NCBI GenBank assembly: GCA_000165345.1
Contig: CM000436.1
Span: forward strand, 544,001-608,000
Length of the DNA: 64,000 nucleotides
Reading direction: 5' to 3'
The notes beneath the pieces are model-generated. The model ran no database searches. It saw nothing but the letters and a program-made list of their open reading frames with translations, and was not told the origin of the DNA. Positions 33,952 through 35,496 of this stretch are shown one piece after another. The position numbers and the translations under genes were made by a program. Position 1 is the stretch's first letter. Every line of letters starts with the position of its first letter.

Positions 33952-35496
33952 ATGAATATGGAGGACGAAAAAATGGAAGATACAACGATTAATAGTGATT
34001 CAGATGATCAGAGTGAGAGCAGTATGACTATGTTTAATAGTGCAAAAGAGCTGAAGGATGCTGGAAATGAGAGTTATAAGGGTGGAAATTACTCAGATGC
34101 AAGAGAAAAATATGAAAAAGGTTTAGAATTATTAGAGAAGATAGATCAAAAAGATGATGAAAAGGAAGGATTTGGAGAGGATGAAATGTCAGAATTACGT
34201 CAAAGCTTACAGTTGAATTTAGCAATGATATATGTGAAGATTCAGGAATGGTCAAAAGCTATTCAAGTAACAGGACAAGTATTGAAGAAGAATTCAAAGA
34301 ATGTCAAGGCTTTATATAGGAGAGGATTAGCTAGACTAGGCTTTGGAATGTATGAGGAGAGTAAGGAGGATTTCCAAAATGTATTAAAGTTGGATCCAAG
34401 CAATGCTGATGCTCACAGACAATTGAAGGTTTTACGCCAAAAGATTCAGGAAGATAATGAGAAGAATAAGAGTGGGTTTAGTAGAATGTTCCATGGAGGT
34501 TTGTACTCAGATAAGCAGCAGGATGTTGAGAAGAAGAAGAAAGAAGAGAGAGAGAGAAGAATTGAAAAGTATAGTCAATATCTTGCACAAATAAAATCAA
34601 AGAATTCTGAAATTGGCTCAGATGATGAAGAGGAAGAGGCTATGCCTTTTGAAGAATGGGAAAAGAAGGAGATAGAAAGGGAGAAGGAGGAGGAGAGGGA
34701 GAAGACAAGAGCAAATGAAAGGAATGCAAAGGAACTTAATGAAAAAAAGCCAGCAACCATTATTTCCAAGAAGAATAATGTAAGTAATGATGATGTAGAT
34801 TTGGATGAAGAAGATCTAAAGATTCTACAAGAAACTAAGAAAATGGGGTATTGCTACTTTAAGAGAGAGTTAACAGAACAAGAGAAAGAATTGAACAGGC
34901 AATTCACTCCAACTCTGATTAACAATAAAGATTCTTATTCTTGCGGTGCATCTCAGCAAAATGACTTGAGCTCTGCAGATATTGACAAATCAAGAGTTGG
35001 AATAAGCTCTTGGAACTCTAAAGGTACAACCTTTGAAGATAAAGATGTTTCTGAAACCGCTAGGTCCACCTTAAAGAGGATACTTTTAGAAGGGGATGGT
35101 AGGCATTTTACTGGAAAGGTTAGTGAAAAAGGAGATTTAAATGTTTCAATCTCAATTGAAAGTGTTGATAATTTATCTGGAGAAGCCTCTGTTGCAATGA
35201 TTCGTGGAACTAGAAGATTTCTCTTTGACTTCTCTGTCACATTAAAATGCGACTACACTCTTGATAATAACGAGAATGAAAAGTATTCATTTAGTATAAA
35301 CATTCCATCTCTAACTTCCATGTGTAATGAAGATGACGTTTTCGGTATTAAAGATTGTAGTATCAACTTTACAGGAAAACACAAGCATAATCACGATCTA
35401 ACTCTTATCAAGGATTTTGTTTTCAACAGCTATTGCCTTATACATTTAAAAGATTGTATTAATTTACTTACTAACGAGATTAACTCGCAATACTAG
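33952..35496 (+). CDS. TPR-repeat protein with C-terminal Aha1 N-terminal-like domain (putative Hsp90 co-chaperone)
   Basis: 514 aa. TPRs: AKELKDAGNESYKGGNYSDAREKYEKGLEL, LNLAMIYVKIQEWSKAIQVTGQVLK, ALYRRGLARLGFGMYEESKEDFQNVLKLDPSNADA. The charged linker is EKKKKEERERRIEKY. The C-terminus VDNLSGEASVAMIRGTRRFLFDFSVTLK...SINIPSLTSMCNEDD resembles Aha1_N (SIEGDCEVNQRKGKVISLFDLKITV...INVPEVAFD). Confidence 0.6.
   Translation: MNMEDEKMEDTTINSDSDDQSESSMTMFNSAKELKDAGNESYKGGNYSDAREKYEKGLELLEKIDQKDDEKEGFGEDEMSELRQSLQLNLAMIYVKIQEWSKAIQVTGQVLKKNSKNVKALYRRGLARLGFGMYEESKEDFQNVLKLDPSNADAHRQLKVLRQKIQEDNEKNKSGFSRMFHGGLYSDKQQDVEKKKKEERERRIEKYSQYLAQIKSKNSEIGSDDEEEEAMPFEEWEKKEIEREKEEEREKTRANERNAKELNEKKPATIISKKNNVSNDDVDLDEEDLKILQETKKMGYCYFKRELTEQEKELNRQFTPTLINNKDSYSCGASQQNDLSSADIDKSRVGISSWNSKGTTFEDKDVSETARSTLKRILLEGDGRHFTGKVSEKGDLNVSISIESVDNLSGEASVAMIRGTRRFLFDFSVTLKCDYTLDNNENEKYSFSINIPSLTSMCNEDDVFGIKDCSINFTGKHKHNHDLTLIKDFVFNSYCLIHLKDCINLLTNEINSQY

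What the first reader, a model, noticed from the sequence alone, without database searches (positions are those of the whole stretch)
33952..35496. Unusual fusion of an Hsp70/Hsp90 EEVD-type TPR module with an Aha1 N-terminal domain
Three canonical TPRs occupy the N-terminal half. A lysine/glutamate-rich linker follows. The C-terminal 150 aa resemble the Aha1 N-domain, which binds the Hsp90 middle domain and stimulates its ATPase (GEASVAMIRGTRRFLFDFSVTLK; SINIPSLTSMCNEDD). Aha1-family proteins normally lack TPRs, and TPR co-chaperones normally lack Aha1-N. A single polypeptide that could clamp the Hsp90 C-terminal MEEVD and its middle domain would be a distinct co-chaperone design.
Basis: partly seen in the sequence, partly recalled or inferred. 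Interest (0 to 1): 0.55.

Follow-up and report, generated by a model that had tools for sequence, protein, structure and literature searches.

The report
TPR-anchored Aha1-type Hsp90 co-chaperone
This Cryptosporidium parvum gene really does join an Hsp90/Hsp70-tail-binding TPR domain to an Aha1-type Hsp90-activator domain, but the fusion is already named in public databases, is conserved across apicomplexan parasites and stramenopile algae, and has never been tested experimentally.

Summary

There is no Aha1 C-domain, so the protein is Hch1-like. The canonical NxNNWHW and RKxK motifs are replaced by family-specific, near-invariant versions (SxWNxxGTT[WFY]ExKD; G-[KT]-[KR]-R).

The claim of an unusual design is only partly right. 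GenBank and UniProt already name the protein for both domains. The P. falciparum ortholog PF3D7_1334200 was annotated Aha1_N+TPR in 2011. The architecture occurs in hundreds of sequence clusters from Apicomplexa and stramenopiles.

The most likely mechanism is inferred, not shown: bivalent binding of cytosolic Hsp90, with the TPR on the MEEVD tail and Aha1_N on the middle domain, so the TPR anchor replaces the missing Aha1 C-domain. Whether it stimulates the ATPase is uncertain. Interest is modest.

The parts
33952..35496 (+). Complete single-exon gene, 514 aa plus stop. C. parvum chromosome-8 protein (CPATCC_004035 / CPHLJ_8g2120).
   Evidence: ORF list. In-frame stop just upstream. 100% identical to P0161.
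33952..34020 (+). Acidic, predicted-disordered N-terminal tail (aa 1-23).
   Evidence: pLDDT about 33. 9 D/E against 1 K/R.
34021..34494 (+). TPR domain (aa 24-181): three TPRs plus a long capping helix 7. Carboxylate-clamp residues K35, N39, N89, K119, R123.
   Evidence: Pfam TPR_1/2/11. phmmer to PDB: 2fbn 9e-21, FKBP51 1e-18, FKBP52, Cyp40, PP5, AIP. AF2 pLDDT about 95 with seven helices. Clamp conserved family-wide: K 128/128, N 103/128, N 151/152, K 169/170, R 169/170.
34477..34512 (+). Post-TPR motif FSRMFHGGLYSD (aa 176-187). It aligns with the FKBP51 YANMF and PfFKBP35 FGGMF...LYEEK segment at the end of helix 7.
   Evidence: Alignments. F180 104/110 and Y185 110/112 in the family.
34507..34737 (+). 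Charged helical spacer (aa 186-262): two long K/E/R-rich helices, with a conserved F233xxW236.
   Evidence: AF2 helices 186-220 and 233-262. 60% K/R/E/D. F233 and W236 invariant among orthologs.
34801..34917 (+). Conserved unannotated module LDEEDLKILQETKKMGYCYFKRELTEQEKELNRQFTPTL (aa 284-322). It travels with this Aha1_N subfamily.
   Evidence: Alignments. No Pfam hit. Profile search: 684 clusters, accompanied only by Aha1_N and TPR. K296 284/288, F303 289/290, P320 291/291.
34918..35004 (+). Variable, low-confidence spacer (aa 323-351).
   Evidence: pLDDT below 50. Length and sequence vary among orthologs.
35005..35046 (+). Family-specific N-terminal motif SSWNSKGTTFEDKD (aa 352-365), sitting where Aha1/Hch1 have NxNNWHW-x-E/D-K-D/N.
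   Evidence: The HMM alignment puts yeast 'W VDKN' opposite 'Y/F E e K D'. S352 290/291, W354 291/291, N355 291/291, G358 279/281, T360 281/283, aromatic-361 285/287, E362 289/290.
35038..35493 (+). Aha1_N domain (aa 363-514): helix, four long antiparallel strands, long C-terminal helix. No AHSA1 C-domain follows.
35200..35217 (+). Basic loop IRGTRR (aa 417-422) at the position of yeast Aha1 R59-K60-G61-K62-V63-I64. E411, six residues upstream, corresponds to yeast D53.
   Evidence: HMM alignment to 1usv/1usu. Family counts: position 411 D/E 249/270, G419 257/270, 420 K/T/R, 421 K/R 223/270, 422 R/K 253/270.

Best explanation
This is a real, conserved gene for an Hsp90 co-chaperone of the Aha type that lacks the Aha1 C-terminal domain (as Hch1 does) and carries an N-terminal immunophilin-type TPR domain instead. 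Shown here: the two folds, their conserved functional residues, and the conserved architecture across phyla. Inferred: (1) the TPR clamp binds the C-terminal MEEVD of cytosolic Hsp90, and its helix-7 extension may contact the Hsp90 C-domain as in FKBP51/52. (2) The charged helices and flexible spacers, about 170 residues in all, let the Aha1_N domain reach the middle domain of the same Hsp90 dimer. (3) The TPR tether supplies the affinity that canonical Aha1 gets from its C-domain. A single polypeptide could then both occupy the TPR-acceptor site, excluding Hop/Sti1, and act on the catalytic-loop region. In yeast that takes Cpr6 plus Aha1 together. (4) The invariant SxWNxxGTT[WFY]ExKD segment and the shifted basic loop stand in for NxNNWHW and RKxK. 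The effect on ATP turnover may therefore differ from Aha1's (stimulation, nucleotide exchange, or only conformational trapping).
Against: No binding or ATPase data exist for any family member. Canonical NxNNWHW is absent, and only one of the three RKxK basic positions is kept in register (K60 becomes R418; R59 becomes I; K62 becomes T). Yeast I64, which I recall from Meyer et al. 2004 (not read here) to be a hydrophobic Hsp90 contact, is an invariant Arg here. In yeast, every NxNNWHW residue and K60 matter for stimulation. The C-terminus of C. parvum Hsp90 was not read directly. I could not determine whether Cryptosporidium also has a canonical Aha1 (one search failed). TPR preference for Hsp90 over Hsp70 is inferred from similarity only.
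Confidence: 0.6

Rival explanations
1. Hop-like bridge. The TPR binds the EEVD tail of Hsp70 rather than Hsp90, while Aha1_N binds the Hsp90 middle domain. The protein would then couple Hsp70 to Hsp90 for client transfer instead of binding Hsp90 bivalently.
For: The carboxylate clamp recognises EEVD in both chaperones. The A3 profile also hits Hop, SPAG1 and RPAP3 TPRs, which include Hsp70 binders. The long spacer would suit bridging two machines.
Against: By single-sequence search the nearest solved TPRs are FKBP35/51/52, Cyp40, PP5 and AIP, which are Hsp90 partners. The FKBP-type helix-7 'MF' motif is conserved.
Confidence: 0.15
2. The Aha1_N-fold domain has diverged to a job other than acting on Hsp90, for example client or tail-anchored-protein handling as an Sgt2/SGTA-like factor. 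The TPR would merely recruit Hsp70/Hsp90 to it.
Against: That shortlisting rested only on TPR similarity. Aha1 N-domains outrank BPI in both fold searches, and sequence profiles hit only Aha1. The D53-equivalent acid and the basic loop are retained at the Hsp90-facing strand. Pfam found no other domain in the protein. I also saw no Sgt2-like dimerisation or Met/Gln-rich domain in the sequence, which is my own reading rather than a test.
Confidence: 0.12
3. Artefact: two adjacent genes (a TPR gene and an Aha1_N gene) read through as one ORF, or chance similarity.
For: None beyond the long low-complexity middle region.
Against: The ORF is uninterrupted and has the same length and domain order in ten Cryptosporidium species and in Plasmodium, Theileria, Besnoitia, Digyalum and diatoms. 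E-values are far below chance.
Confidence: 0.01

Closest known systems
Hch1 (S. cerevisiae), the Aha-type co-chaperone made only of an Aha1_N domain
   Same: An Aha1_N fold with no AHSA1 C-domain. The acidic residue at the D53 position and a basic loop at the RKxK site are present.
   Different: Hch1 has canonical NxNNWHW and RKxK motifs and no TPR (PMC6426937). This protein has SxWNxxGTT[WFY]ExKD and IRGTRR, plus a TPR domain, a charged spacer and an extra conserved module.
Aha1 / AHSA1 (yeast, human, P. falciparum PF3D7_0306200; PDB 1USU/1USV, 6XLB-6XLH, 7DMD, 3N72)
   Same: Best sequence and structure matches for aa 352-514.
   Different: About 17-20% identity. The C-terminal domain that binds the Hsp90 N-domains is missing, and the motifs are altered.
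Large TPR immunophilins FKBP51/FKBP52/PfFKBP35/Cyp40 (yeast Cpr6)
   Same: The TPR domain is most similar to theirs (E 1e-21 to 1e-11), including the clamp and the helix-7 'xxMF' segment.
   Different: No PPIase domain. Some orthologs are nevertheless auto-named 'peptidylprolyl isomerase'.
P. falciparum PF3D7_1334200 (old ID PF13_0190), 'chaperone binding protein, putative'
   Same: I take it to be the ortholog because it carries the same product name and the same Aha1_N+TPR architecture as the Plasmodium spp. orthologs found here. Those are 30% identical, E=2e-44, and collinear through TPR, module and Aha1_N.
   Different: Only annotation-level knowledge exists: domain call in 2011 (PMC3090354), listing as a second 'PfAha1' without reference (PMC8616389), and a hit in PfGet3 BioID (PMC8629386). 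Other reviews omit it (PMC9332011, PMC12570473).
Oomycete zf-MYND + Aha1_N proteins (Aphanomyces, Achlya)
   Same: The same Aha1_N subfamily and the same upstream module (RGYKN..PYFHRE).
   Different: A MYND zinc finger replaces the TPR domain.

Membership tests
Aha1_N domain family (Pfam PF09229) | Sequence match above the curated gathering score | tested here: met
   53.7 bits against a cutoff of 23.6, E=3.2e-14. 54.5 bits for the C-terminal part alone.
Aha1_N domain family (Pfam PF09229) | Aha1 N-domain fold (N-terminal helix, four-stranded antiparallel sheet, C-terminal helix) | tested here: met
Aha-type co-chaperones (Aha1/Hch1), criteria of Mercier et al. 2019 | NxNNWHW motif at the N-terminus of the domain | tested here: not met
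   Replaced by SSWNSKGTTFEDKD. Only one Trp, an Asn and the trailing aromatic-E-x-K-D are comparable.
Aha-type co-chaperones (Aha1/Hch1), criteria of Mercier et al. 2019 | RKxK motif (yeast R59, K60, K62) | tested here: not met
   In register the sequence is I417-R418-G419-T420. Only the K60 position stays basic. Extra basic residues R421 and R422 follow. Stramenopile members read (G/S)-G-K-K-R.
Aha-type co-chaperones (Aha1/Hch1), criteria of Mercier et al. 2019 | Acidic residue equivalent to yeast D53 | tested here: met
   E411. D/E in 249 of 270 family sequences.
Canonical Aha1 (AHSA1) | C-terminal AHSA1/START-like domain (PF08327) | tested here: not met
   The protein ends with the Aha1_N C-terminal helix. 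No PF08327 hit in the query or in 78 + 131 relatives.
Aha-type co-chaperones | Binds the Hsp90 middle domain and changes the ATPase rate | not testable with these tools
   Needs biochemistry or complex modelling. No published data were found.
EEVD-binding (carboxylate-clamp) TPR co-chaperones | Three TPR motifs plus a capping helix | tested here: met
   Pfam finds three stretches. AF2 gives seven helices at pLDDT about 95.
EEVD-binding (carboxylate-clamp) TPR co-chaperones | Two-carboxylate clamp K-N-N-K-R | tested here: met
   K35, N39, N89, K119, R123 are present. Family counts are 128/128, 103/128, 151/152, 169/170 and 169/170. That these five positions form the clamp rests on established knowledge of Hop and FKBP TPRs.
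EEVD-binding (carboxylate-clamp) TPR co-chaperones | Partner chaperone ends in (M)EEVD in this organism | not tested
   Indirect only. MEEVD is the norm for cytosolic Hsp90, and the named exceptions (Leishmania, T. cruzi, Dictyostelium, Ciona) do not include Cryptosporidium. The C. parvum sequence was not read.

The most novel reading that the evidence does not exclude
The TPR - module - Aha1_N proteins form a third, protist-specific class of Aha-type co-chaperone beside Aha1 and Hch1. In this class a TPR anchor replaces the Aha1 C-domain. A redesigned N-terminal motif (SxWNxxGTTWEEKD) and a new ~45-aa module (RGYKKTxDGRTTSYFxRE...P) regulate Hsp90 in a way not seen in yeast or animals, for example by combining Hop displacement with ATPase or nucleotide-exchange control in one polypeptide. 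I saw no animal or fungal protein among the hits that carry a name. If the class is truly absent from the mammalian host, it would be a parasite-selective handle on an essential chaperone.
Probability: 0.3. Interest if true: 0.55.

Novelty: already known. Interest (0 to 1): 0.33.

Why it matters
Hsp90 is a drug target in apicomplexan parasites, and its co-chaperones are where parasite and host differ most. Reviews of the Plasmodium Hsp90 system disagree on how many Aha-type proteins exist and mostly overlook this one. A natural fusion of an immunophilin-type TPR with an Hch1-like domain would test two ideas: that tethering can replace the Aha1 C-domain, and that occupying the TPR site and engaging the middle domain act together, as shown in trans for Cpr6 plus Aha1. 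The near-invariant replacements of NxNNWHW and RKxK, together with the unannotated conserved module, give concrete mutational targets. None of this changes what kind of thing the protein is: a recombination of two well-known Hsp90 co-chaperone modules, already recorded in the databases.

Tried and rejected
(1) The afdb50 fold library, which I wanted for the taxonomic spread of the architecture, was not available.

(2) To find out whether Cryptosporidium also has a canonical Aha1, I searched with the PfAha1 N-domain fragment printed. The search gave 16 candidates and one fragment, so it was uninformative. The question stays open.

(3) The A3 profile against the PDB was swamped by TPR hits, because full-length rows turned the TPR into profile columns. 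I repeated the search with the C-terminal-only profile A2.

(4) A literature search for the C. parvum gene under guessed locus tags (cgd8_2120, Chro.80248, CPATCC_004035) found nothing. Searches for Cryptosporidium or Toxoplasma with Aha1 and TPR found no description of the fusion.

(5) A gene-fusion or annotation artefact is rejected, because orthologs are collinear.

(6) Membership of the Sgt2/SGTA family is rejected. The only evidence is a TPR-similarity shortlist, and Pfam finds no domain beyond TPR and Aha1_N.

(7) The 'peptidylprolyl isomerase' name that UniProt gives some orthologs is rejected, because no PPIase domain is present.

(8) Model coordinates could not be read. I therefore could not check whether the aa 284-322 module packs against the Aha1_N domain. 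I only have its intermediate pLDDT of 62-84.

Full report
**Observation**

The ORF at 33952..35496 on the + strand is real. It runs from an ATG, two codons after an in-frame stop, to a TAG, and encodes 514 aa. The window is AT-rich at about 30% G+C. The translation is 100% identical to a Cryptosporidium parvum protein (P0161: EAZ51467, QOY39969 = CPATCC_004035). A near-identical entry is CPHLJ_8g2120, on chromosome 8. The C. hominis protein is 99% identical.

**Domain identity**

Pfam gives Aha1_N (PF09229) at E=3.2e-14, 53.7 bits against a gathering score of 23.6, over aa 363-482. It also gives three TPR stretches (TPR_2 9e-14, TPR_1 1.5e-11, TPR_11 6.5e-12).

Against PDB sequences, the N-terminal part is most like the TPR domains of Hsp90-binding immunophilins and relatives:
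- 2fbn, 9e-21. I recall this as P. falciparum FKBP35; the PDB name is '70 kDa peptidylprolyl isomerase, putative'.
- FKBP51, 1e-18.
- FKBP52, AIP, PP5 and Cyp40.

A profile of the C-terminal 237 aa from ten orthologs hits only Aha1 N-domains: human 7dmd at 1.1e-6, P. falciparum 3n72 at 3.7e-4, and yeast 1usv/1usu/6xlb at 1e-3 to 5e-3.

**Structure**

An AlphaFold2 model of the full protein (15-sequence alignment) shows:
- a seven-helix TPR domain (aa 24-181, pLDDT about 95);
- two long charged helices (186-220 and 233-262);
- short helices at 286-297 and 309-317;
- disordered stretches;
- a confident C-terminal domain (363-513) made of a helix, four long strands and a 30-residue helix.

A second model covered aa 278-514 with a 78-sequence alignment. 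It reached pLDDT above 90 over the domain and pTM 0.66.

It is not met, so the assignment stands.

**Residue-level anatomy**

The five carboxylate-clamp positions of EEVD-binding TPRs are present: K35, N39, N89, K119 and R123. Across all family sequences gathered here they are almost invariant: 128/128, 103/128, 151/152, 169/170 and 169/170. The segment after helix 7 (FSRMFHGGLYSD) aligns with FKBP51 YANMF and with FGGMF..LYEEK in 2fbn, and it is conserved.

In the Aha1_N part, the HMM alignment to yeast Aha1 maps:

| Yeast Aha1 | This protein |
|---|---|
| D53 | E411 |
| R59 | I417 |
| K60 | R418 |
| G61 | G419 |
| K62 | T420 |
| V63 | R421 |
| I64 | R422 |
| L66 | L424 |
| F67 | F425 |
| D68 | D426 |

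The acidic D53 position is kept, with D/E in 249 of 270 sequences. The RKxK motif is not kept in register. The family instead has G-[K/T]-[K/R]-[R/K], and the K60 position is basic only in the apicomplexan members.

Immediately upstream, where Aha1 and Hch1 carry NxNNWHW, the family has S-x-W-N-x-x-G-T-T-[W/F/Y]-E-x-K-D. W354 and N355 are found in 291 of 291 sequences and E362 in 289 of 290.

According to PMC6426937 and bioRxiv 10.1101/2025.06.10.658861, NxNNWHW and K60 are needed for full ATPase stimulation and for in vivo activity of Aha1 and Hch1. The family has therefore kept strong constraint at these sites, but on a different sequence solution.

No AHSA1 C-domain (PF08327) is present here or in any of the 78 + 131 relatives scanned. 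By the criteria of PMC6426937, which are one or more of the two motifs and D53 plus no C-domain, the protein is at best 'Hch1-like'.

**The linker is not just a linker**

Between the charged helices and the Aha1_N domain lies a module at aa 284-322, LDEEDLKILQETKKMGYCYFKRELTEQEKELNRQFTPTL. It is nearly invariant in Apicomplexa. It is clearly homologous to a stramenopile consensus, ELTExELAxLRGYKKTxDGRTTSYFTRExxExEKxLIGxIxPKxL.

No Pfam model covers it. A profile of the module, searched against 1.84 billion representative proteins, found 684 clusters at E<=1e-3 and 362 at E<=1e-10. Among 131 new hits, the only recurring Pfam families were Aha1_N (93) and TPR (84). The module is also present in oomycete proteins that carry a MYND zinc finger in place of the TPR. 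It therefore belongs to this Aha1_N subfamily rather than to the TPR. Its function is unknown.

**Distribution and prior knowledge**

Full-length collinear orthologs exist in ten Cryptosporidium species, Besnoitia, Plasmodium ('chaperone binding protein, putative'), Theileria annulata TA13000 and the gregarine Digyalum oweni. They also exist in diatoms (Conticribra, Nitzschia, Chaetoceros) and pelagophytes (Chrysophaeum, Aureoumbra). Cylindrotheca appears with an Aha1_N-only hit. Many environmental sequences belong to the family too.

Public records already name the Cryptosporidium protein 'Activator of Hsp90 ATPase N-terminal/ TPR repeat domain-containing protein'.

The P. falciparum gene PF13_0190 (PF3D7_1334200) has this record:
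- It was annotated Aha1_N + TPR by a domain-context method in 2011 (PMC3090354).
- It appears as a second 'PfAha1', without reference, in one review table (PMC8616389).
- It was recovered in a PfGet3 BioID experiment as an Sgt2 candidate on the strength of its TPR (PMC8629386).

Two other reviews omit it (PMC9332011, PMC12570473). I found no biochemical or genetic study of any member. So the architecture is catalogued but uncharacterised.

**Mechanism**

Shown here:
- two folded modules of known Hsp90 co-chaperone types;
- conservation of the residues that bind EEVD, and of the acidic and basic features on the Hsp90-facing strand of Aha1_N;
- a long spacer;
- absence of the Aha1 C-domain.

Inferred from established knowledge of Hop and FKBP TPRs and of the Aha1-N:Hsp90-M complex (1USU/1USV, 6XLB): the protein binds one Hsp90 dimer at two sites, the MEEVD tail and the middle domain. 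The TPR anchor compensates for the missing C-domain.

In yeast, Aha1 together with the TPR immunophilin Cpr6, but not Hch1, displaces Sti1/Hop (PMC6426937). A fusion of an immunophilin-type TPR with an Hch1-like domain could do both jobs by itself.

I put this reading at about 0.6. I put 'it stimulates the ATPase like Aha1' lower, at about 0.4, because the stimulatory motifs are replaced.

The rivals are:
- a Hop-like Hsp70-Hsp90 bridge (0.15);
- a diverged non-Hsp90 role for the Aha1_N fold, such as the Sgt2-like idea (0.12);
- an artefact (0.01).

**Gaps**

I did not read the C-terminus of C. parvum Hsp90. The literature only says that MEEVD is the norm and names other exceptions. I could not establish whether Cryptosporidium also has a canonical Aha1. 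The afdb50 library was unavailable. Model coordinates could not be inspected.

**Verdict**

The observation and the domain interpretation are correct. The mechanistic idea is reasonable but untested. The novelty is overstated, because the fusion is annotated and phylogenetically widespread.

What this analysis adds is that the family is a coherent Hch1-like subfamily with three features of its own: replacement motifs at the two functional sites of Aha1, an extra conserved module, and a TPR/MYND alternative at the N-terminus.

Interest is modest at 0.33. The protein is a sensible target for Hsp90 biochemists working on parasites, not a new kind of system.

Noticed in passing
window 34801-34917 (aa 284-322): A ~40-aa module, LDEEDLKILQETKKMGYCYFKRELTEQEKELNRQFTPTL, is conserved family-wide (stramenopile form RGYKKTxDGRTTSYFTRE...P). 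No Pfam model covers it. It is found in 684 representative clusters, always alongside Aha1_N and/or TPR. Its 'DGRTTSYF' core resembles the downstream 'GTTWEEKD' motif. Function unknown.
   Followed up: yes
P0130 (Aphanomyces astaci, 329 aa), P0136 (Achlya hypogyna, 299 aa): Oomycete members of the same Aha1_N subfamily carry a zf-MYND finger (PF01753) in place of the TPR domain and keep the upstream module. This suggests the N-terminal 'anchor' domain is exchangeable.
   Followed up: partly
P0003 (C. ubiquitum), P0134 (Chrysophaeum taylorii): UniProt auto-names these orthologs 'peptidylprolyl isomerase', although no FKBP_C or cyclophilin domain is listed for them. The name was probably over-transferred from the FKBP-like TPR.
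   Followed up: partly
literature: PMC9332011, PMC12570473, PMC8616389: Reviews disagree on the Plasmodium Aha-type inventory. One lists a single Aha1 (PF3D7_0306200). One lists PF3D7_0306200 plus PF3D7_0308500. One lists PF3D7_0306200 plus PF3D7_1334200, the TPR-Aha1_N gene.
   Followed up: partly
window 32659-33336 (-): A 225-aa ORF with a hydrophobic N-terminus, a MIR domain (PF02815, 26.7 bits) and a C-terminal KDEL. It looks like an SDF2-like ER-resident protein, diverging from the co-chaperone gene across a ~600-bp intergenic region.
   Followed up: partly
window 29548-30768 (+), 36221-36679 (+), 37346-38134 (-), 38878-40203 (+), 42291-43892 (+): The neighbouring ORFs are ordinary, unrelated eukaryotic genes: NUP50-like, a CID-domain protein, PCNA, poly(ADP-ribose) glycohydrolase and a protein kinase. 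There is no chaperone gene cluster.
   Followed up: partly
window 34648-34659 (aa 233-236) within the charged helices: An F-x-x-W pair (PFEEWEK) is conserved across the family inside an otherwise low-complexity K/E/R stretch (F 123/147, W 120/150). It may be a short docking motif.
   Followed up: no
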